Assembly (NCBI GenBank): GCA_049322575.1
Contig: JBMORQ010000003.1
Span: 17,719 to 81,718, forward strand
Direction of reading: 5' to 3'
DNA from: Patescibacteria group bacterium
GTDB taxonomy: Bacteria > Patescibacteriota > Microgenomatia > UBA1400 > PJMF01
Length of the DNA: 64,000 nucleotides
The position numbers and the translations under genes are program-made. Shown here in pieces: positions 13,852 to 41,119 of the stretch (positions are counted from its first letter, which is position 1; each line of letters opens with the position of its first letter). The notes under the pieces were generated by a model that saw nothing but the letters and a program-made list of their open reading frames with translations, did not search any database and had not been told where the DNA came from.

Positions 13852-13922
13852 TCCCGGATAGTGAAATGGCATCACAACAGGTTCTGACCCTGTTATTCTA
13901 GGTTCGAATCCTGGTCCGGGAT
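13852..13922 (+). tRNA. tRNA-Gln (anticodon CUG); no CCA is encoded
   Basis: Hand-folded cloverleaf: acceptor TCCCGGA/TCCGGGA, D-stem GTGA/TCAC, anticodon stem ACAGG/CCTGT with loop TTCTGAC, T-arm CTAGG-TTCGAAT-CCTGG. Confidence 0.65.
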
Positions 13923-14062
13923 CAAAAGTTGGCGTCAGGTAAGTTGAATTGCTACTTCATCACCTAGCTTGTTTAATTGGTTAGATTGACTTCCATTAAA
14001 ATGCATTCCATTTCCAAAAAAATCCCCCTCAACAAATCACGGCATTTTCGTATAATGATCGC

Positions 14063-33019: not shown

Positions 33020-33277
33020 TTACAAGGTGATTAAAAATAAGATTAATCCAGACAACCCTGAAACTGCCAAGTACTCCAGAATAATATTTTTTGTGATAGT
33101 TCCAAGGCGAATGTGAGAAAAGATCCCCCAGAGAAAGTAGAAAACAGAAATTATCACAACAATGATACGTTGCAACAAACGATCAGGCCATGCTGCAAAG
33201 AATAAAAAAGCCAAAATCGATAAAACCAACACCAATAACAAATAGGCTAGTCGGTGACGTAAATACTCTTTTTTCAT
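33020..33277 (-). CDS. Small two- to three-TM membrane protein (hypothetical)
   Basis: 85 aa, highly hydrophobic, start abuts the CAP-domain gene stop. Confidence 0.4.
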   Translation of the reverse strand: MKKEYLRHRLAYLLLVLVLSILAFLFFAAWPDRLLQRIIVVIISVFYFLWGIFSHIRLGTITKNIILEYLAVSGLSGLILFLITL

Positions 33278-34278
33278 TACTGAATAATCCCACCTTTAAA
33301 GAAAATTAATAAAAATGCTATGGTCGAAAAAAGGATTATATGAGCAAAATTATGACCAACAACTCTATCCAGTTTCTTGTGATTACTGACTAAGCCGTCA
33401 TATATCAGAGTCATGATGATTAGAAAAACGACAGCCAAAAAGAAAGCTTTGGTTAGATGCAAAGGATTAAAGATGGGTGAACTCTGAGAAAAGATTCTAA
33501 CAGGTGACTGTCCAGCCAAAATTGAGGCCTGACCAAAAGCTGCTTGTTGGCCATCTTCAGCGAAAACCACAGACTTCGGTTGATTTGCCACTAATTGAGA
33601 AAGATCACTTCCTGGTGAACCAAACATCTGGACGACCAAGGTTGTCTCGAAACCTTGGAGACGACCATCCACAACCGCCACGCCAATCTCAGTAAACTTA
33701 TCATTTACAATATTGGCTCGATGAGTTGGAGACTCCATCCAGGCAGAGACCATTTGATCGGTCGTTTGAAAATCACGAGCTAAATTTTCCCCAGCAACCT
33801 GATAAACATAGCCCGCCTGATTAATGAAAAACCATGGCTCATGTCCATCTGGTGAATTATGTGACCAATACTGCTGGTCAAACATGTTTTGAGCCTTGCT
33901 GAGAGCCGCCGCAGCTAATTTGTCATTATAAGTTAACGTCGACAAGCCCATTTTCTGACGTTCAAGGTTGGTTTTTTCCAAAACCTTATCTGCACTAATT
34001 TCTGAGGAAAATCCTAAGATGCTATCTTTTAATCCAGGAAAGAAACGGACAGCCTGAATAAGAGAAAAAATACCGATAACAATCAGACCCAAATAAAAGA
34101 TTGATTCCGGATGTAATATTTTAGCTCGGTGATGATTTCCACGATGAGGATGAAAGAGATTTCTAAAAGAAACATGCAAAAAATTTAGCTTTTTTGTCGA
34201 GTTTCTTTTAATTCGTTTGGTATGCTTGGGTAGATGAGTATTCATGAGATCAAATAAAGCTAATAAATAACCAAACAC
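33277..34278 (-). CDS. CAP/SCP/PR-1 domain secreted protein with an N-terminal TM anchor
   Basis: 'ENLARDF' and 'VSAWMESPTHRANIV' are CAP-domain signature blocks. Confidence 0.7.
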   Translation of the reverse strand: MFGYLLALFDLMNTHLPKHTKRIKRNSTKKLNFLHVSFRNLFHPHRGNHHRAKILHPESIFYLGLIVIGIFSLIQAVRFFPGLKDSILGFSSEISADKVLEKTNLERQKMGLSTLTYNDKLAAAALSKAQNMFDQQYWSHNSPDGHEPWFFINQAGYVYQVAGENLARDFQTTDQMVSAWMESPTHRANIVNDKFTEIGVAVVDGRLQGFETTLVVQMFGSPGSDLSQLVANQPKSVVFAEDGQQAAFGQASILAGQSPVRIFSQSSPIFNPLHLTKAFFLAVVFLIIMTLIYDGLVSNHKKLDRVVGHNFAHIILFSTIAFLLIFFKGGIIQ

Positions 34279-34573: not shown

Positions 34574-35968
34574 CTATTGATTCATACCACTGGTTTTATC
34601 AGCGGCTTCTTTAACGTTTGCGGGTTTTTTTCTCGCTTCAACTTCTTCGATAAAAGCGTAGTTAATTAGACGTGATACCAATAGATCAAGAACAGCAACA
34701 ATCCAATACCATTTACACAGCCAAACCAGCAGCCAAAAACCTCCTGAGTAACAGTCACACTGGCGCAACCAGTAGAACAGGCCAATGGAAAGCAGGGCTA
34801 TGACCACAGCCACCCAGTGCTTTGTCTGAGTACGCTTCTTCTTGAAATAGTTGTCGAATAACATGGTCACTAATAGTTGCAGGATAAGTAGTATCCAAGG
34901 AACATAGAAACGCCAGCTCACACAAACTCCACTTGTGGCACCGGCTACCTCACCAGTTGGTTGAGAGGTTGGTTGCACCTGCGCTGATTGAGTCGATTCA
35001 TCGGTTGTTTCACCTAAAACTTGCCCGCCTTGACCAACTGGGCGAACGTCAGGCGCCAAGACCTGTCCAGATGTGATAGGAATTTCAGCACTATTAGACC
35101 TAGGGCCAGGAGCACAATCGTTAACTCCAAAAATCTGGAAAGAGTACGCTTGACCTGCTGAAAGCTGAGTAACTGTGTATGATGTAGTATTGCCAATATT
35201 GGTACTTCCGTATGATGCACCATCAGATATTCTAGTAAAAACTAGGGCATAGTGAGTCACTGGGCTGACTGACGTCCAGTTAAGGGTTACAGCATTCGGT
35301 CCGGCACCAGCTACACTCAAAGAAGGCGCGGAGGTAGGAACTTCTGCCTCACAAACAGGTGGCTTGGCTGGATCAGTGTTGGTGGAGCCGGGATTACCAC
35401 CAGGAGGATTCCCCGGATTGCCAGGATTTCCCGGGTTAGAGGGTCCATCACAAGTGATTCTGACAGCAAAATCAAAAACTGTCCGAGAACGTTGAAACTC
35501 GTTACCAGCTAAAATGTCAAAATTAGCATTCCAGGTAAAAACTCTTGTTGAATTGGGAGCCAGACTACCGAGTGAAATATTATCAGTGTCGTATAAGTCT
35601 TGGTATGAGCGATCGCTGGTGGCAACACCCGATATCTGTGTACCGAAATAATCTGTATTACCAGAATAAATGGCCGCAAACATTCTCTCAGCCAGGTTAA
35701 CCGAGCTTTCTGGGGTTGTGTCTGTGGCGTTGAGCAGCAGATTGCATGTTTCGTCACTATCATTATTGGTAATAGTTAATGTCTGAGTGAAATTGTCTCC
35801 AGGCATCATACCACTCTCATTGAATAGTGGAGTATCAGCTGGGGAAATACTACACGGACCATTGTTAGCACAAGTCACAGTTAAATCTGTGCCCGCCTCA
35901 GCTGAAACAACCAAGTTAAGAAAAAATGACAACGAAACTAGAAGTGATAAAAATATTTTTCTAATCAT
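34574..35968 (-). CDS. Cell-surface protein: signal peptide, TasA/camelysin-like N-domain, PGN-repeat linker, FN3 domain, Ser/Thr/Gln-rich stalk, and a C-terminal polytopic (three to four TM) Cys/Trp-rich membrane anchor
   Basis: 'LFNESGMMPGDNFTQTLTITNN' resembles the TasA-family 'kPGD...N.G' block. 'NPGNPGNPGNPPGGNPG' linker. An FN3-like 'VTLNWTSVSPVTHYALVF...YSFQIFGVND' region. Hydrophobic tail 'WILLILQLLVTMLF ... AVVIALLSIGLFYWL ... FWLLVWLCKWYWIVAVLDLLV'. Confidence 0.6.
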   Translation of the reverse strand: MIRKIFLSLLVSLSFFLNLVVSAEAGTDLTVTCANNGPCSISPADTPLFNESGMMPGDNFTQTLTITNNDSDETCNLLLNATDTTPESSVNLAERMFAAIYSGNTDYFGTQISGVATSDRSYQDLYDTDNISLGSLAPNSTRVFTWNANFDILAGNEFQRSRTVFDFAVRITCDGPSNPGNPGNPGNPPGGNPGSTNTDPAKPPVCEAEVPTSAPSLSVAGAGPNAVTLNWTSVSPVTHYALVFTRISDGASYGSTNIGNTTSYTVTQLSAGQAYSFQIFGVNDCAPGPRSNSAEIPITSGQVLAPDVRPVGQGGQVLGETTDESTQSAQVQPTSQPTGEVAGATSGVCVSWRFYVPWILLILQLLVTMLFDNYFKKKRTQTKHWVAVVIALLSIGLFYWLRQCDCYSGGFWLLVWLCKWYWIVAVLDLLVSRLINYAFIEEVEARKKPANVKEAADKTSGMNQ

Positions 35969-38900
35969 TCCATCCTCCAGTTAAACCTGTTTCCAGGAGT
36001 TTTTCGGCATTATCTTTATCCTGCAGCCTTAGTTGCAGCTTGATAGATGTAGCATCGATACCGCGGTGGGGAGTACACTCTCCGCCAGAGCAGGTACCAA
36101 AATATATGTCCTTAACCTCGACTGAATCACTATCTATATCAACTCCGCCGTTAATCACATCCACAACCTTCACTTGATTGTCGGCATCTACCACTGGATG
36201 CTCGTATTCAATATGATATAGACCGCGTTCAAAGCTTGACGCATTCTTAATCGACATCCAAGCCTTAAAAGGCTCCTGTTGTTGTAAAACCACCAAAGGA
36301 TCGGTGGCTGGCACTGGAGTCGGACTGATGGCAGGCATGGTCTGACCCTCAACTAGAGCAAGATTGGAAAGTTCCGACCATTTATGAGCAGAATCCATCG
36401 ATTTAAGTGCAAAATAGTAGGCTTTACCCGCCTCCAAACCTTTGACCAGAAGATCTTCTTGCTCTCCAGCAACTCTAGGAGCTAGACCCTCTGAACCCAG
36501 TGTTAAATTTGAAACCGCTGAAACTCGGCTGGCCGCAGACCAGTTGTCCTGAGTAATTGGTTGCTCAGAATATCGAATTTCATAGCGTAGAACGCTGGGA
36601 GCAAAGTTATCTGAGGGTGCTGTGAATGTCAGGCTATACTCGCCCTCTCCCTCATCATACGCCTTGAGATCGTTGATCGAGCTTGGTGCTTGATCATCCC
36701 ATGTGACGTAGATCGAATTCATCTTTCCTTTGGCTCCAGTACTGGCTACGGACCAGAAGTAAAGCATGTGGTCATCCGGCTCACCTTCAAGTGTGAAACC
36801 CACACCTGATTTGAGTGAGCCAGTTTTGATCTGACCATCCAGTAAATATCTGTAAGCTACTTCGCCGATGGTATCAGGATTGTCACTATAGATGGTAAAC
36901 AAAGCTCCACTGTCAACAACAGTCGCTGCAGTGTTGACGTCGTCCAAGTAGACGAGAGTGTTTTGCGATTGATCGCCTGTGTTACCTGCTTGTAGTTTAA
37001 GATTGAGCTGAGACGAGGCATCGTCGGCAACGTATATTGAAACATATTGCCAACCACTTGCCTGCCCAGATGCACCTGACAACGCCTGAAGTCTCGAAAG
37101 ATCTTTTGCCCAGACTTGGTATACCAGTTTGTCATTGATGTAGGCCGACAAGGCTGGTTCATCAAAGCCAGGATCAACTTCGCTCGTAACCATATTAAAC
37201 CAGAAACCAACCGAACGAAGTCCACGACCGGAATTATCAATATTCTGCGAAATGCTGTTCACACCTTGGCCAGAACCGTCTAAAACCGCCATAAAGGTAG
37301 CGCTACGTGGCTTAACTCCTGCCTGTCCGTTTTCAACCGCAGCAACCTGGCCCTGAGTGCCCCATGACTCTAATCCTTTGGAAAAATCGCCATTGTACAC
37401 TTTGTTTTGGATATCTTTTTCTGGACTGTTGGTTACGGTAATTGTCGAACCAGATGTGCTATCAATTGTGACAATAACTTGAGAAGTGGGAGAGGTGACT
37501 ACACTAGCATTGCCGGCTTCATCAACTGCTGAAAAGGAAATAGTGTACTCTCCGTCAGGTACACCCGTAGTGTCCCAGCTGTAAATTGTTTCGTTGTTGT
37601 AAGTGTTGGCTCCACCAGTCTGATCTGGGAAAGAAGGGACGGCGTTATTGCTTGCATCACGTGCCGTCAATAACCAAGAAGCCGGATTGGCATCAGATAA
37701 AGTAACGTAAAAGTCTATTGTTGCATTAGCTGCATAGCTATCGCCATCACTTGGGCTGTTAATAGCAGCTGCTGGCGCTAAAGTATCTAAAGTAATCTCA
37801 CAGTAATCACTCCAGGCACCTGGCCAATCAACTCCTGCATCAAAATTTCCATCATGATTATTATCCTCAAAGGCTCTAACTCTAGTATTCCACAAACCTT
37901 GAACGCCTGAACCCGAGCCAAATGAAGAGAATAGTGTGTAATTGTCTGTGGCATAGAAATAACCAATTGAACCAGAAGGGTAAGTTACTTCACGTTGATA
38001 GGCAATGTTTCGCCCAGAAACTGCAGACCAATTATGTGCGACTCTAGGCGCTGAAGTATTACCCGTGTTGGTTGTTGCGCCACAAGCTAGGTCGAGAGGC
38101 CTTTCATCGGGTGTGGTGGAAGACGGAGGGATGTTCCAGCCATCATTGGTTGGAGTTGCGGGCGTCCAGACAGAAGTAGATAAGCTACCGGCAATTAACT
38201 CAGTATCACTAAAGCCCTGATCGTAGGATTCAAAATTTGTCTGCCAGGCTTCAGTCACCATGTTAAAGTTACATGTCATGTTCTCAAGACTTGTATCAGC
38301 ATCCACAGGCAAACTCACCTCGTAGCTAAACCAATGCTCATCAGCCCCATAAAAACTGTTGGGGTAATAAGTATGACTATTGATGATGACCATGTCTGGG
38401 TCATGAGTGGGATTGTTGGTTACAAAATCATTAAAAGCACTCAAGGAACCACTGTATTTGAGATCGCTCTGGACGTTTGTTAGATCGCCTGGAGTGGCTG
38501 GTGCTGCAGTATGCCAGTTGTAGTGAACCTGAAGTTGTAGAGCGTCACAAAGAGCAGTGTCACTACCTGGCAAGATCGAGACGCGTGAAAGATATTTCAC
38601 ATTGAGAGAACCTAGTTTCTGCACGTAGATATCTCGAGAAACCACGTCTCCTGGCCAAAGACTGTTACTAATTGGACCAAAATCAGCTTGATCTGAGCGT
38701 AGTCCAATATCAAGAGTCGAAGCAGTAAAAACACTATTATAAGAAGTCTCGAGATCGGCAATTCCAGACAGTGTTGGCAGAGTTGTCGAGACCAAAATGA
38801 CTAAGGCAAAAAAACTAGTAACTTTGAGCCAGGTAATCGACCTCTTCTTCAAGAAGTCCACAAAATTTTTGATGGTGGTTAGATCATTCTTTATCTTCAT
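35961..38900 (-). CDS. 979-aa secreted multidomain protein with a SipW-cognate-type signal peptide, a TasA-like N-domain, Ig-like, CBM4/9-like and FN3-like domains
   Basis: The N-terminus 'IADLETSYNSVFTASTLDIGL' aligns position-for-position with the TasA-like 'FDDTEVSANNTFVAGQIDLEV' of the gene at 39596-40408. 'LWPGDVVSRDIYVQKLGSL' is a TasA block. 'NGDFSKGLESWGTQG' is a CBM_4_9-like start. Confidence 0.65.
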   Translation of the reverse strand: MKIKNDLTTIKNFVDFLKKRSITWLKVTSFFALVILVSTTLPTLSGIADLETSYNSVFTASTLDIGLRSDQADFGPISNSLWPGDVVSRDIYVQKLGSLNVKYLSRVSILPGSDTALCDALQLQVHYNWHTAAPATPGDLTNVQSDLKYSGSLSAFNDFVTNNPTHDPDMVIINSHTYYPNSFYGADEHWFSYEVSLPVDADTSLENMTCNFNMVTEAWQTNFESYDQGFSDTELIAGSLSTSVWTPATPTNDGWNIPPSSTTPDERPLDLACGATTNTGNTSAPRVAHNWSAVSGRNIAYQREVTYPSGSIGYFYATDNYTLFSSFGSGSGVQGLWNTRVRAFEDNNHDGNFDAGVDWPGAWSDYCEITLDTLAPAAAINSPSDGDSYAANATIDFYVTLSDANPASWLLTARDASNNAVPSFPDQTGGANTYNNETIYSWDTTGVPDGEYTISFSAVDEAGNASVVTSPTSQVIVTIDSTSGSTITVTNSPEKDIQNKVYNGDFSKGLESWGTQGQVAAVENGQAGVKPRSATFMAVLDGSGQGVNSISQNIDNSGRGLRSVGFWFNMVTSEVDPGFDEPALSAYINDKLVYQVWAKDLSRLQALSGASGQASGWQYVSIYVADDASSQLNLKLQAGNTGDQSQNTLVYLDDVNTAATVVDSGALFTIYSDNPDTIGEVAYRYLLDGQIKTGSLKSGVGFTLEGEPDDHMLYFWSVASTGAKGKMNSIYVTWDDQAPSSINDLKAYDEGEGEYSLTFTAPSDNFAPSVLRYEIRYSEQPITQDNWSAASRVSAVSNLTLGSEGLAPRVAGEQEDLLVKGLEAGKAYYFALKSMDSAHKWSELSNLALVEGQTMPAISPTPVPATDPLVVLQQQEPFKAWMSIKNASSFERGLYHIEYEHPVVDADNQVKVVDVINGGVDIDSDSVEVKDIYFGTCSGGECTPHRGIDATSIKLQLRLQDKDNAEKLLETGLTGGWND

Positions 38901-39459
38901 TGCTTAATGACTCAGTTGCTAGCTTTTTGGCAGATTTTCTTGCTCTGAAAATTCTGGCAATTTCTTTTTTTATGGTATTAAATTCGTTATAGGCAAGTAA
39001 AGTAGCAGGAATAACAATTAATAAAACAAAACCCATCTGGGTTTGAGAAAACATCACAATTTTACCCAAATATGGTATATGGAAGATTACCTTGCCGATT
39101 ACTCTCTTTTGTTCGGCTAATTCAGGATCTGCTTCTTCATTAGCATCACCTTTTGTTTGATAAAGCACACGGTCTTCTCGGTTCACTATACCAGTAATTC
39201 GGTGAGTATAAGTCTTATTGGAGCCAATCACTGGTACAGCAGTGATAATGTCTCCTATCTTGTATTCTGCCTGATCTTTAACTATGACCAAGCTACCAAC
39301 GTTAAGTGCTGGCTCCATTGAACCGGACAGAACAGCAAAAACTCTAAGTTTCAGCGGAGTGTTGAACTTGGATAATGCCAACATTCCAGCAACTACAACG
39401 ATAAAGATAGCCACCATCCAGGAAACAAGATTGCTGATAAATGATATTTTACTTTTCAT
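38884..39459 (-). CDS. sipW: SipW-type (archaeal/ER-type) signal peptidase I
   Basis: N-terminal TM, 'VLSGSMEP' catalytic Ser motif, 'THRI' and 'TKGDAN' blocks, and a C-terminal TM. 191 aa, the same size class as B. subtilis SipW. Confidence 0.75.
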   Translation of the reverse strand: MKSKISFISNLVSWMVAIFIVVVAGMLALSKFNTPLKLRVFAVLSGSMEPALNVGSLVIVKDQAEYKIGDIITAVPVIGSNKTYTHRITGIVNREDRVLYQTKGDANEEADPELAEQKRVIGKVIFHIPYLGKIVMFSQTQMGFVLLIVIPATLLAYNEFNTIKKEIARIFRARKSAKKLATESLSNEDKE

Positions 39460-39595: not shown

Positions 39596-40408
39596 TTACG
39601 GAGTCCAGGTAGAGCACTCGAAATTTTCGTTGTGTCTTGATTGAACTGCGTAGAAAGTGATGTCACCAACGACATCGTCTCCCTGAGCGACGTTATTTGT
39701 TGCAACACCGCTACAAGTGAAACCACCGTTGACAGCATCGACAGTCATGGTACCGAAGCACCAAGCCTGACCCAAATACTCAGCTCCAGGAGCTGGAGTA
39801 AATGGAGTTCCAACTGTACCTCCAAAAACGTGGGTAGTAGAGTCAACCAAATCGAAGGTTTGACCACCATTACCAGCACCTTGAGGTAAGTTGTTGAGGG
39901 TGGTTGGAGGCATAACGACTGACTCGCCTGCTTCGTAAACACCATCCCCATCGTCGTTCCAGAAGAAGAAGTTCAACTGGTCATCGAGCTCACCATTCCA
40001 GTCTCCTGCAGTGGTGTCTTCATCAGCTGACTCGGCGTCGTTAACGGCGTCGTCGTCTGATGCGGTTAATTCGATGTTAGAACAAACCCATGAAGGATTG
40101 TCGCTAACTTGCAAGGTTGCGTAACCGTAGCCGGAATCACCTGGTTTGACATCATCAAAATTAAAGAAAATTTGAGATGCTGTCAAATCTTGGACTCCCC
40201 AAGTTCCAGCTGTGTCAGCGACATAGCCAGCACCTTGGTCAACCCAAGCTTGGTGACCAACTTCTAAATCAATCTGTCCAGCGACGAACGTATTGTTAGC
40301 TGAAACTTCGGTATCATCGAAGTAAGCCAGAGTACCAGCAGAAACGCCGGCCACGACTACACCTAACAAAACTGCGCTTGATAAGATTTTCTTCATTGCA
40401 CTATTCAC
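39596..40408 (-). CDS. TasA/camelysin-family secreted fibre subunit with a SipW-cognate signal peptide
   Basis: 'KKILSSAVLLGVVVAGVSAGTLAYFDDTEVSANNTFVAGQIDLEVG' is the SipW-cognate class signal plus mature N-terminus. 'FDDVKPGDSGYGYATLQVSDN' is a TasA block. A GGGGG RBS lies upstream of the ATG at 40408. Confidence 0.7.
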   Translation of the reverse strand: MNSAMKKILSSAVLLGVVVAGVSAGTLAYFDDTEVSANNTFVAGQIDLEVGHQAWVDQGAGYVADTAGTWGVQDLTASQIFFNFDDVKPGDSGYGYATLQVSDNPSWVCSNIELTASDDDAVNDAESADEDTTAGDWNGELDDQLNFFFWNDDGDGVYEAGESVVMPPTTLNNLPQGAGNGGQTFDLVDSTTHVFGGTVGTPFTPAPGAEYLGQAWCFGTMTVDAVNGGFTCSGVATNNVAQGDDVVGDITFYAVQSRHNENFECSTWTP

Positions 40409-40838
40409 CCCCTTCCCAAGAAGAGTTATTTTTAAGTCAAAACTTAAACAAAAAACTCCGCCCTTCGAAAACGAAGTTAGCTACATCACTCCTAATTAAA
40501 GAAGTGCTGGGCAGGCAGAGTCCTTGTAAAGTCTTTCGTGCACTAAGTATTACGTGTTTTTTTTTGCTTTGTCAATTAGTGGGTTTGAGTAATTAATATT
40601 TTTTGCCAAGTGAGTCAAAATAGCAAAAAGGCATGATAGATAGGCGTGAGAATCCGATGAGATTTTTATAAGTTTTTTTCTGAGTTTCTGCACTTATGAG
40701 TAAATTATTTAACACAACACTAAAGCCATAGAAGTCTTGTGCGTGAAAAAATGGCAATGACGATTTTGATTTTTATATGATCTTAAAAAACTGCAAAAAC
40801 TCTTTTGTTCAAAAATCCAAAGTCTGAAAAATCCCGAG

Positions 40839-40924: not shown

Positions 40925-40996
40925 GGCCCCATCGTCTAGCGGCTAGGACATCGGGTTCTCATCCCGGTAACTGGGGTTCGATTCCCCATGGGGTCA
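40925..40996 (+). tRNA. tRNA-Glu (anticodon CUC)
   Basis: The cloverleaf GGCCCCA-TC-GTCTAGCGGCTAGGAC-A-TCGGG-TTCTCAT-CCCGG-TAAC-TGGGG-TTCGATT-CCCCA-TGGGGTC-A has the same architecture as E. coli tRNA-Glu. Confidence 0.75.
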
Positions 40997-41119
40997 CATC
41001 ATAAAAAAAGGATGCTTTACAGCAACTTTTTTATGATTGATACCGACAAATATATTTTTTCACTTCCCATTCACATCTAAATTACCAACTTGTCTGGCTC
41101 ATCGAGCACGAAGGAAAAA

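What the first reader, a model, noticed from the sequence alone, without database searches (positions are those of the whole stretch)
34574..35968. TapA-like component with a polytopic C-terminal membrane anchor rich in Cys and Trp
The 464-aa protein has a signal peptide, a TasA-like N-domain, an NPGNPGNPGNPPGGNPG linker, an FN3 domain, a long Ser/Thr/Gln-rich stalk, and three to four hydrophobic helices with CDC and WYW motifs at the very C-terminus. A multi-pass C-terminal anchor on a secreted fibre-family protein is unusual. It could serve as the membrane base or anchoring point of the fibre, a role filled by peptidoglycan-bound TapA in Bacillus.
Basis: seen in the sequence. Interest (0 to 1): 0.6.

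Follow-up and report, generated by a model that had tools for sequence, protein, structure and literature searches.

The report
Membrane anchor subunit of TasA-type fibre
This gene from an uncultured Patescibacteria (CPR) bacterium encodes a fibre-subunit-like domain that lacks the strand needed to link onward and sits on a three-helix membrane anchor, so it most likely holds a TasA-type surface fibre or adhesin to the cell; only archaea have a described counterpart.

Summary
Window 34574..35968 (-) encodes a real, conserved 464-aa protein: signal peptide, jelly-roll N-domain, NPG-rich linker, FN3, disordered stalk, three C-terminal TM helices. Four Cys and a C-x-W-Y-W motif are near-invariant. 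The N-domain is TasA-like: its five best PDB fold matches are AbpA and TasA, and it matches the operon's own TasA-like proteins (hhalign 97%, E 1.7e-11). "TapA-like" is wrong. The protein has no donor strand, no SipW-type signal and no TapA fold.

It is the last, translationally coupled gene of an operon conserved in 9 of 9 complete loci: shaft subunit, SipW peptidase, large adhesin-like protein, this protein. Shaft and large proteins carry an N-terminal donor-strand segment. The target's mature end is 7 residues before a disulfide-stapled hairpin.

Best reading (about 0.6): an acceptor-only subunit that takes the last donor strand and anchors or terminates the fibre at the membrane. This parallels haloarchaeal TafF, itself known only from modelling. 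The FN3-stalk-3TM part is a portable cassette, found here only in Patescibacteria and unmatched in Pfam/NCBIfam, that also ends 54 giant surface proteins.

Strand acceptance was not tested. Verdict: new variant of a known kind, moderate interest.

The parts
39596..40408 (-). Shaft subunit (270 aa from the GTG start; 266 aa if the ATG at 40396 is used): SipW-type signal, donor-strand segment TLAYFDDTEVSANNTFVAG, then a TasA-like body
   Evidence: Pfam Peptidase_M73 E 2.5e-7. NCBIfam TIGR04088 SipW-cognate signal E 1.1e-6. Donor register against TasA 28-38. Orthologues sit in the same position in 9/9 loci.
38884..39459 (-). SipW / archaeal-type signal peptidase I (191 aa), with SGSMEP, THRI and GDAN motifs
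   Evidence: TIGR02228 E 1.9e-29, above its cutoff; SipW equivalog model E 8.7e-33, below its cutoff. Pfam Peptidase_S26. Conserved position in all loci.
35961..38900 (-). Large adhesin-like protein (979 aa): signal, donor-strand segment ADLETSYNSVFTAS, an extra TasA-like jelly-roll (about residues 45-240), then a body shared with relatives. No C-terminal anchor.
   Evidence: Weak Peptidase_M73 and Ig-like hits. Residues 240-979 align to relatives' proteins starting at their residue 52-55, right after their donor segment. Residues 247-403 match giant protein P0105, which is fused to the anchor cassette. C-termini carry no TM.
35894..35968 (-). Target, residues 1-25: ordinary Sec signal peptide with A-E-A|G cleavage motif. 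The ATG overlaps the stop codon of the 979-aa gene (ATGATTAG), with GGAGGA upstream.
   Evidence: No TIGR04088 match.
35444..35893 (-). Target, residues 26-175: TasA-superfamily jelly-roll head without a donor strand. The mature N-terminus GTDLTVT leads into the C33-C39 stapled hairpin; C75/C173 form a co-varying pair.
   Evidence: AF2 pLDDT 94.5. Foldseek top five are AbpA/TasA. hhalign 97.3%, E 1.7e-11 to the operon's TasA-like proteins. Cys statistics.
35375..35443 (-). Target, residues 176-198: disordered Asn/Pro/Gly-rich linker (NPGNPGNPGNPPGGNPG)
   Evidence: pLDDT below 50 for 176-198; sequence.
35009..35374 (-). Target, residues 199-320: FN3 domain flanked by invariant C206/C285, plus the ordered extension RP-x-G-x-G-G-x-VLG
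   Evidence: Pfam fn3 E 3e-9. pLDDT 95-98. C206/C285 present together in 49/49. This is the start of the portable cassette.
34928..35008 (-). Target, residues 321-347: disordered stalk
   Evidence: pLDDT below 50 for 321-347.
34634..34927 (-). Target, residues 348-445: three-helix membrane module with C349, Q364, C404-x-C406, C418-x-W-Y-W and the cytoplasmic YAFIEE motif
   Evidence: AF2 helices 351-374, 382-401, 412-445. Conservation. Positive-inside counts. 196 clusters in 1.84 billion representatives, always at the C-terminus.
34574..34633 (-). Target, residues 446-464 plus stop: short charged cytoplasmic tail
   Evidence: Sequence; low pLDDT.

Best explanation
The 464-aa protein is the membrane-anchored end subunit of a TasA-superfamily donor-strand fibre or adhesin in a Patescibacteria (Microgenomates-type) bacterium.

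Shown:
- Its head is a TasA/AbpA-like jelly-roll.
- It lacks the N-terminal donor strand that every shaft and large protein of these operons carries.
- It has an ordinary Sec signal where the others have SipW-type N-termini.
- It ends in a conserved FN3-stalk-three-TM cassette with N-out/C-in topology.
- It is the last, translationally coupled gene of a conserved operon: shaft, SipW, large protein, anchor.
- The same cassette anchors giant surface proteins directly.

Inferred:
- SipW cleaves the shaft and large proteins and exposes their donor strands.
- The anchor's jelly-roll accepts the donor strand of the cell-proximal subunit. That subunit is either a shaft subunit or the large adhesin directly.
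- Because the anchor cannot donate a strand, the chain ends there.
- The chain would read: large protein (donor-only in most relatives, distal tip), then shaft subunits (donor plus acceptor), then anchor (acceptor-only, in the membrane).
- The two disordered linkers and the FN3 domain carry the head through the cell envelope.
- The four outward-facing Cys staple the helix bundle.
For: 1. Fold. The N-domain model has pLDDT 94.5. The five best Foldseek PDB hits are 7UEG AbpA (E 7e-4) and TasA 5OF2, 5OF1 and 8AUR (E 2.6e-3 to 6.6e-3, prob 1.0, TM 0.45-0.51). The next hits are unrelated or low probability.
2. Sequence. hhalign of the N-domain family against the operons' shaft and jelly-roll proteins gives Prob 97.3%, E 1.7e-11 over 115 columns.
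3. No donor strand. Shaft and large proteins carry 14-16 residues (A[FYW]F.D...N.F..) in front of the G-x-L-x-L strand, the position of TasA 28-38. The target goes from A-x-A straight to GTDLTV. In nearly all family members the mature end is 7 residues before a Cys-stapled hairpin.
4. Context. The order shaft, SipW, large protein, target holds in 9 of 9 distinct loci with full upstream sequence, plus a partial tenth. The target start codon overlaps the upstream stop codon.
5. Anchor. Three confident helices. Mean K+R is 3.4 and 4.2 on the predicted inside, against 0.9 and 1.1 outside. Ectodomain Cys occur in pairs, with perfect co-variation of C75/C173.
6. Cassette. Target 200-447 matches the C-terminal 250 residues of giant proteins (E 1e-43 to 1e-61). 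127 of 136 mid-size module proteins have the TasA-like head and 0 of 54 giants do.
7. Rosetta stone. A domain of the 979-aa protein (247-403) occurs in P0105, which is fused directly to the cassette.
8. Precedent. TafF of Haloarcula tafi has a Sec signal while its partners use Tat, a pilin-like N-domain that receives TafA's donor strand in AlphaFold models, and three C-terminal TM helices. It was proposed as anchor and terminator (PMC11821415).
Against: - Acceptance of a donor strand was not tested. No multimer modelling was possible and model coordinates could not be inspected.
- The groove may be permanently filled by the protein's own disulfide-stapled N-terminal hairpin.
- hhalign against the big-protein jelly-rolls places GTDLTVTC opposite their donor segment. 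The register of the first 15 or so residues is therefore ambiguous, and the hairpin could be a locked, self-complementing donor remnant.
- Pfam PF12389 and a PDB hmmsearch do not detect the N-domain.
- No fibre has ever been observed in these organisms.
- TafF itself rests on modelling only.
Confidence: 0.6

Rival explanations
1. A closed, self-sufficient surface protein. The TasA-fold head is a stable monomeric domain, for example a ligand-binding or adhesive head, displayed on the generic FN3-stalk-3TM cassette. It takes no part in donor-strand exchange, and its operon linkage reflects co-regulation of surface proteins.
For: The cassette is a generic anchor for many unrelated heads. The conserved C33-C39 hairpin could lock the fold. 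One hhalign register aligns the first strand with a donor segment, consistent with permanent self-complementation. AF2 predicts the monomer with very high confidence.
Against: Strict four-gene synteny in 9/9 loci and start/stop overlap with the donor-strand-bearing large protein. The large proteins have no anchor of their own yet carry a donor strand that needs an acceptor. The head's only structural relatives are fibre subunits. 127 of 136 mid-size cassette proteins carry exactly this head.
Confidence: 0.2
2. An assembly platform or chaperone rather than a structural end-piece. The membrane-tethered head transiently caps newly cleaved subunits next to SipW, perhaps through contact between the 3TM module and SipW, and hands them to a growing secreted fibre. 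This would be an usher- or chaperone-like role.
For: It is membrane-bound next to a membrane peptidase encoded in the same operon. The conserved polar and Cys residues in the TM module and the conserved cytoplasmic YAFIEE motif suggest more than passive anchoring. TasA-type fibres lack any known usher (PMC9245690).
Against: The same TM module anchors giant adhesins encoded far from any SipW, so the module does not need SipW. TasA and AbpA fibres are thought to assemble without a chaperone or usher. There is no direct evidence.
Confidence: 0.12
3. One reading: a TapA-like component that nucleates and anchors the fibre the way TapA does in Bacillus.
For: Same operon type as tapA-sipW-tasA. An anchoring role is plausible.
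Against: No donor-strand-like N-terminus. No SipW-type signal and no NCBIfam hit. The fold matches TasA/AbpA, and TapA 6HQC is not among the top 50. TapA supplies a strand (PMC9674648), whereas this protein can at most receive one.
Confidence: 0.04

Closest known systems
TafF, proposed membrane anchor and terminator of haloarchaeal Tat-fimbriae (Haloarcula hispanica HAH_0238; PMC11821415, PMC12337348)
   Same: N-terminal pilin-like beta-sandwich or jelly-roll head with no donor strand of its own. General Sec signal while the polymerising subunits use a different, specialised N-terminal signal. Three C-terminal TM helices. Encoded with shaft, tip and a dedicated signal peptidase. Proposed to receive the last donor strand and fix the chain to the membrane.
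   Different: TafF is archaeal and its partners are Tat-secreted. It has no reported FN3 or Cys-rich C-x-C...C-x-W-Y-W module. Sequence homology could not be tested here because the TafF sequence was not obtainable. The TafF role is itself only modelled with AlphaFold. No TafG/DUF5305-type accessory gene was seen among the four operon genes here.
TasA / AbpA fibre subunits (PDB 8AUR, 5OF1, 7UEG)
   Same: Jelly-roll fold, conserved PGD and terminal AGNEYQG..FD strand motifs, and an operon with SipW.
   Different: The target has no N-terminal donor strand, no SipW-type signal and no PF12389 match, and it is membrane-tethered rather than secreted. It cannot polymerise.
TapA (Bacillus subtilis)
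   Same: Minor, non-polymerising partner of a TasA-type fibre, thought to tie the fibre to the cell.
   Different: TapA donates a strand, has a different beta-sandwich fold, and is SipW-processed and wall-associated. The target would accept a strand, has the TasA fold, and is an integral membrane protein. In strand logic the operon's large protein is the closer TapA counterpart.
Anchor and terminator subunits of other donor-strand pili: Mfa2/FimB of type V pili and PapH of P pili (from established knowledge, not tested here)
   Same: A pilin-fold subunit that cannot propagate the chain, ends polymerisation and fixes the fibre to the envelope.
   Different: Unrelated lineages in outer-membrane systems, anchored by lipidation or at the usher. 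Strand polarity and assembly machinery differ.
SLH- and LPXTG-type anchors in bacterial AbpX loci (bioRxiv 10.64898/2026.01.04.697558)
   Same: Bacterial TasA-superfamily loci encode dedicated anchor proteins predicted to join the fibre by donor-strand complementation.
   Different: Those are cell-wall anchors (S-layer homology or sortase-linked). Here the anchor is a polytopic membrane module specific to Patescibacteria.

Membership tests
TasA/camelysin superfamily (PF12389 Peptidase_M73; TasA, CalY, AbpA) | Jelly-roll fold of TasA/AbpA | tested here: met
TasA/camelysin superfamily (PF12389 Peptidase_M73; TasA, CalY, AbpA) | Sequence match to the family | tested here: inconclusive
   No PF12389 hit for the target or any of 49 homologues, and no PDB TasA hit with the profile. 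However, hhalign to the operons' PF12389-positive shaft and jelly-roll proteins gives Prob 97.3%, E 1.7e-11.
TasA/camelysin superfamily (PF12389 Peptidase_M73; TasA, CalY, AbpA) | N-terminal donor strand (TasA residues 28-38) that drives polymerisation | tested here: not met
   The mature N-terminus is 7 residues before a stapled hairpin in nearly all family members. Shaft and large proteins have the 14-16-residue segment.
TasA/camelysin superfamily (PF12389 Peptidase_M73; TasA, CalY, AbpA) | SipW-cognate signal peptide (TIGR04088) | tested here: not met
   The target matches no NCBIfam family. The 270-aa neighbour matches TIGR04088 at E 1.1e-6.
TasA/camelysin superfamily (PF12389 Peptidase_M73; TasA, CalY, AbpA) | Encoded next to a SipW-type signal peptidase | tested here: met
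   SipW lies in the same operon in the window and in all 10 informative loci.
TapA (YqxM) | N-terminal segment resembling the TasA donor strand, which nucleates the fibre | tested here: not met
   Absent. The defining feature is taken from PMC9674648.
TapA (YqxM) | TapA beta-sandwich fold (PDB 6HQC), distinct from the jelly-roll | tested here: not met
   6HQC is not among the 50 best Foldseek hits, and TasA/AbpA are on top. The fold distinction is from PMC9245690.
TapA (YqxM) | SipW-dependent signal / TapA family model | tested here: not met
   No NCBIfam hit at E up to 1. The signal is an ordinary A-x-A type.
TafF-like membrane anchor of donor-strand fimbriae | Pilin-like N-terminal head without its own donor strand | tested here: met
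   TafF description from PMC11821415.
TafF-like membrane anchor of donor-strand fimbriae | Three C-terminal transmembrane helices with the functional domain outside | tested here: met
   AF2 helices 351-374, 382-401 and 412-445. Positive-inside counts across 49 sequences. No dedicated topology predictor was available.
TafF-like membrane anchor of donor-strand fimbriae | General Sec signal while polymerising subunits use a specialised signal | tested here: met
   The target has A-x-A|G and no TIGR04088 match. Shaft and large proteins have SipW-type N-termini. This is analogous to Sec versus Tat in tafi.
TafF-like membrane anchor of donor-strand fimbriae | Sequence or structural homology to TafF itself | not testable with these tools
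   The TafF sequence could not be obtained: no supplements are held and AFDB was unavailable.
TafF-like membrane anchor of donor-strand fimbriae | Head accepts the donor strand of the last fibre subunit | not testable with these tools
   There is no multimer prediction and no access to model coordinates.
Fibronectin type III domain (PF00041) | Match above the Pfam gathering score, with the FN3 fold | tested here: met
   37.4 bits against a cutoff of 25. Found in 49/49 homologues. The full-length model hits FN3 structures.

The most novel reading that the evidence does not exclude
Microgenomates-type Patescibacteria build a complete, three-part donor-strand surface appendage: a donor-only tip adhesin, a TasA-like shaft, and an acceptor-only base. 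The base is fixed directly in the cytoplasmic membrane by a previously undescribed, lineage-specific FN3-stalk-3TM/4-Cys anchoring cassette. This cassette is the clade's general alternative to sortase/LPXTG anchoring, and the same clade uses it for its giant adhesins. The appendage would be a main device by which these ultra-small, probably host-dependent cells attach to partners or surfaces.
Probability: 0.35. Interest if true: 0.72.

Novelty: new variant of a known kind. Interest (0 to 1): 0.55.

Why it matters
- How TasA-type fibres are held to the cell is still unsettled, even in Bacillus, where TapA's role is debated. The only explicit membrane-anchor proposal, TafF, comes from haloarchaea and rests on modelling.
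- This family gives a bacterial case with a clean division of labour that can be read from sequence: donor-only, donor plus acceptor, and acceptor-only subunits in one conserved operon. That makes the polarity and termination of TasA-type assembly directly testable with three small recombinant pieces.
- It also defines a portable membrane-anchoring cassette with no Pfam or NCBIfam match, which flags surface proteins, including giant adhesins, in Patescibacteria. Their cell-surface biology and attachment to hosts are largely unknown, and most such genes are annotated only as 'FN3 domain-containing' or 'hypothetical'.

Tried and rejected
- Full-length Foldseek search: only FN3 hits, uninformative for the head. 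Solved by modelling the head alone.
- PDB hmmsearch with the head profile: nothing relevant.
- hhalign of the head profile against single neighbour sequences: only short, low-probability matches around PGD. A profile of nine shaft and three jelly-roll sequences was needed.
- phmmer of the shaft and the large protein's N-terminus against PDB: not significant. TasA appears at E about 0.8-0.9, in the expected register.
- The search for related loci with the broad alignments failed for lack of a conserved stretch. A narrower alignment worked.
- The search for homologous proteins with the head profile returned a single fragment, so it gave no view of heads on other anchors.
- TafF sequence: not obtainable from the paper, so homology to TafF stays open.
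- Stand-alone C-terminal module: rejected. The short hits sit on contigs of 0.7-2.6 kb, and cluster mates, where present, are 225-471 aa.
- C-terminal sorting signal (sortase, exosortase or archaeosortase type): rejected. The module has three helices, is 100 residues long and strongly conserved, and has no LPXTG- or PEP-like motif.
- Regulatory RNA upstream of the operon: Rfam finds only tRNA-Glu there.
- Literature: nothing on TasA-type systems in CPR beyond a phylum-level distribution note.
Full report
**1. The observation**

The ORF lies exactly where stated, at window 34574..35968 on the minus strand, and encodes 464 aa. It is a real gene. An identical protein is on record as 'MAG: fibronectin type III domain-containing protein [Patescibacteria group bacterium]'. 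About 73 near-full-length homologues at 30-50% identity were found, and every named source is Patescibacteria, Microgenomates, Pacebacteria or Woesebacteria.

All the described parts are present:
- A signal peptide with A-E-A|G.
- A folded N-domain.
- The NPGNPGNPGNPPGGNPG linker at residues 178-194.
- An FN3 domain (Pfam E 3e-9, residues 214-294).
- A second disordered stretch.
- A hydrophobic C-terminus with C404-D-C406 and W420-Y-W422.

The full-length AlphaFold2 model, built on 49 homologues, is confident for the head (about 90), FN3 (about 97) and the C-terminal helices (85-95). It is disordered for residues 176-198 and 321-347. It shows three helices, 351-374, 382-401 and 412-445 (kinked at 420), rather than 'three to four'. 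The stalk is rich in Gly, Val, Thr and Gln rather than strictly Ser, Thr and Gln.

**2. The head is TasA-like, not TapA-like**

Pfam and NCBIfam see nothing in the head, and neither does a PDB profile search. A model of the mature head alone has pLDDT 94.5 and pTM 0.87. Searched against 350,542 PDB chains, it returns as its five best hits only TasA-superfamily fibre subunits:
- Archaeal bundling pilin AbpA 7UEG (E 7e-4).
- TasA monomers 5OF2 and 5OF1.
- The TasA fibre 8AUR (E 2.6e-3 to 6.6e-3, probability 1.0, TM 0.45-0.51).

Everything below these hits is unrelated or of low probability.

There is independent support at sequence level. The head family's profile matches a profile of the operons' own shaft and jelly-roll proteins with 97.3% probability and E 1.7e-11 over 115 columns. 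The match includes the PGD motif and the terminal AGNEYQG..FD strand.

TapA has a different beta-sandwich fold (PMC9245690) and does not appear among the hits.

**3. The missing donor strand**

In TasA, residues 28-38 form the donor strand, 39-47 a linker, and 48-61 a strand that self-complements in the monomer. TapA is thought to supply the first donor strand (PMC9674648).

I aligned the N-termini on the conserved G-x-L-x-L strand. Every shaft protein and every large protein of these operons carries 14-16 residues of the type A[FYW]F.D......N.F.. between its signal peptide and that strand. The target runs from A-x-A directly into G-T-D-L-T-V.

In nearly all of the 49 family members, the mature N-terminus is exactly seven residues before the first Cys of a C-x5-C hairpin. 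C33 and C39 occur together in 48 of 49 sequences. Such a short, stapled end cannot reach a neighbouring subunit, so 'cannot donate' is robust.

One caveat applies. A second hhalign register puts GTDLTVTC opposite the donor segment of the big-protein jelly-rolls. The hairpin might therefore be a locked remnant of a donor strand that fills the protein's own groove. Whether the groove is open was not testable here.

**4. The operon**

The target is the last of four co-directional genes:
- A 270-aa protein with Peptidase_M73 (E 2.5e-7) and the SipW-cognate signal TIGR04088 (E 1.1e-6).
- A SipW / archaeal-type signal peptidase I (TIGR02228, E 1.9e-29).
- A 979-aa protein.
- The target.

The target's ATG overlaps the stop codon of the 979-aa gene (ATGATTAG) and follows a GGAGGA, which indicates translational coupling.

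The same order of shaft (250-345 aa), SipW (191-238 aa), large protein (519-1155 aa) and target recurs in all nine distinct loci with complete upstream sequence. A tenth locus is cut by a contig end.

In most relatives the large protein goes from its donor segment straight into an adhesin-like body, often with a lamin-tail domain, and has no jelly-roll. The window's copy aligns with those proteins from its residue 240 onward and has an extra TasA-like jelly-roll fused in front. None of the large proteins that sit directly upstream of the target has a C-terminal anchor.

**5. The anchor is a portable cassette**

The C-terminal module is among the best-conserved parts of the protein: mean column identity is 49%, against 37% overall. 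C349, Q364 (inside TM1), C404, C406, C418 and W420 are each present in at least 90% of sequences, and a YAFIEE motif marks the cytoplasmic end of TM3.

An exhaustive profile search of 1.84 billion representative proteins finds 196 clusters (85 at E 1e-10 or better), and the module is always at the extreme C-terminus. The short hits are fragments.

Two classes emerge:
- Mid-size proteins: 127 of 136 carry the TasA-like head at the N-terminus.
- Giants of 600-2470 aa: 0 of 54 carry it.

Target residues 200-447 (FN3, stalk and 3TM) align with the last 250 residues of the giants at 36-42% identity, E 1e-43 to 1e-61. The two giants whose loci were examined lie away from any SipW or TasA genes.

A domain of the 979-aa protein (247-403) recurs inside giant P0105 (E 1.4e-14), which is fused directly to the cassette. 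This is a Rosetta-stone hint that the large protein and the cassette work together physically.

**6. Topology and disulfides**

Across 49 sequences, mean K+R is 3.4 in the TM1-TM2 loop and 4.2 in the C-tail. It is 0.9 before TM1 and 1.1 in the TM2-TM3 loop. This fits N-out, three spans, C-in, which a secreted N-terminal ectodomain requires.

The ectodomain Cys come in pairs:
- C33/C39 occur together in 48 of 49 sequences.
- C206/C285 occur together in 49 of 49.
- C75/C173 are both present in 13 sequences, both absent in 36, and never present singly.
- 45 of 49 proteins have an even Cys count.

The four module Cys all lie at or near the outer face. I infer two disulfides stapling the bundle, though metal binding is not excluded.

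**7. Mechanism**

Putting the pieces together gives three subunit types:
- Shaft proteins can both donate and accept a strand.
- Large proteins can donate (donate only, in most relatives) and have no anchor.
- The target can at most accept and is fixed in the membrane.

The only chain that uses all three is large protein, then shaft subunits, then target. The target is then the cell-proximal terminator and anchor. The large protein could also plug directly into the target.

SipW would expose the donor strands, and a general signal peptidase would process the target. The linkers (23 and 27 disordered residues) and the FN3 domain would carry the head across the envelope.

The shown and inferred steps are listed separately under the best explanation. 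I put this reading at about 0.6. The main rivals are:
- A closed, non-exchanging head on a generic anchor (0.2).
- An assembly-platform role next to SipW (0.12).
- The TapA-like reading (0.04), which fails its defining features.

**8. Comparison with known systems**

The closest described thing is TafF of Haloarcula hispanica tat-fimbriae. It has a Sec signal while TafA, TafC and TafE use Tat. Its 140-residue pilin-like head receives TafA's donor strand in AlphaFold models. It has three C-terminal TM helices and was proposed to 'finalize' and anchor the chain TafC-TafE-TafA-TafF (PMC11821415). Natrinema has single-TM variants (PMC12337348).

For bacterial TasA-superfamily loci, SLH and LPXTG wall anchors have been predicted (bioRxiv 10.64898/2026.01.04.697558).

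For Patescibacteria I found only the remark that PF12389 occurs in the phylum (PMC9245690), and nothing on an anchor or on this cassette.

Homology to TafF could not be tested. Type V pilus anchors (Mfa2/FimB) and PapH are functional analogues, cited from general knowledge.

**9. Verdict**

The 'membrane base of the fibre' idea is supported by anatomy, context and precedent, and the 'TapA-like' label is wrong.

This is a new variant of a known kind: a bacterial, Patescibacteria-specific, TafF-style acceptor-only anchor built on an undescribed FN3-stalk-3TM/4-Cys cassette.

Interest is moderate (0.55). The finding is not categorically new and rests on inference for the key step, but it makes the polarity, termination and anchoring of TasA-type fibres directly testable. 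It also marks a whole class of CPR surface proteins.

Noticed in passing
window 38151-38900 (-), N-terminal ~250 aa of the 979-aa protein: The window's large protein has an extra TasA-like jelly-roll (with its own donor segment) fused in front of the body. In most relatives the body starts right after the donor segment. Around residue 230 there is a second donor-like stretch (FSDTELIAGSL). This suggests a fusion of a shaft-like gene with the adhesin gene. L006 (520 aa) and L015 (519 aa) have the same jelly-roll form.
   Followed up: partly
L008 8001-14567 (P0105, 2188 aa); also P0106, P0107, P0114, P0117, P0125: Giant Patescibacteria surface proteins (SdrD_B, SpaA-like, CarboxypepD_reg and DUF642 domains) end in the same FN3-stalk-3TM/4-Cys cassette. 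The two examined (P0105, P0091) are encoded away from any SipW/TasA genes.
   Followed up: partly
window 35012-35047 (-) (residues 308-319) and residues 339-347: A conserved R-P-x-G-x-G-G-x-V-L-G motif directly after FN3 is ordered in the model. A second G-x-V-x-G motif lies just before the first membrane-module Cys. Both recur in the giant proteins' cassettes. Function is unknown; possibilities include packing against FN3, or a processing or modification site.
   Followed up: no
window 34634-34660 (-), about residues 437-445: A strongly conserved Y-A-F-I-E-E motif at the cytoplasmic end of TM3, and a conserved Gln (Q364) inside TM1. Together they suggest the module does more than passively anchor.
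   Followed up: no
window 40454-40478 and 40546-40575 (-): A terminator-like hairpin followed by a T-run lies in the 5' leader of the shaft gene, about 45 nt before its start and downstream of the best promoter-like site (TTGACA-18-AATACT). It could be an attenuator. Rfam finds no known family there.
   Followed up: partly
window 33277-34278 (-): A CAP/YkwD-domain protein (333 aa) with hydrophobic helices at its N-terminal region and C-terminus sits directly downstream. The same neighbour (CAP, then an ~85-aa protein, then NTP_transferase) follows the target in L001, L005, L006 and L007 but not in L003. It may be conserved core synteny rather than part of the system.
   Followed up: partly
L006 3512-8615: A variant locus in a Microgenomates genome: after the target homologue comes a 1493-aa LTD/Big_13/FN3 protein with a C-terminal hydrophobic tail, then a sortase gene. 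Two anchoring strategies therefore sit side by side.
   Followed up: no
L012, L015, L016, L017 (record titles): GTDB representative contigs carrying this Patescibacteria-type locus are titled 'Vitreimonas sp.' (a 1.4-Mb contig) and 'uncultured Pseudomonadales bacterium'. These are probably mislabelled or mis-binned MAGs, or less likely evidence of transfer. In L012 my ORF script picked a different FN3 protein, so that locus was not analysed.
   Followed up: no
window 40925-40997 (+) and 13852-13923 (+): tRNA-Glu(CTC) lies in the 680-nt gap upstream of the operon on the opposite strand. tRNA-Gln(CTG) lies further away. These are the only Rfam or ARAGORN hits in the 64-kb window.
   Followed up: yes
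window 40396-40408 (-): The shaft gene's listed GTG start (VNSAMKKIL...) is 4 codons upstream of an ATG that gives a more typical signal peptide (MKKILSS...). The true start is uncertain.
   Followed up: no
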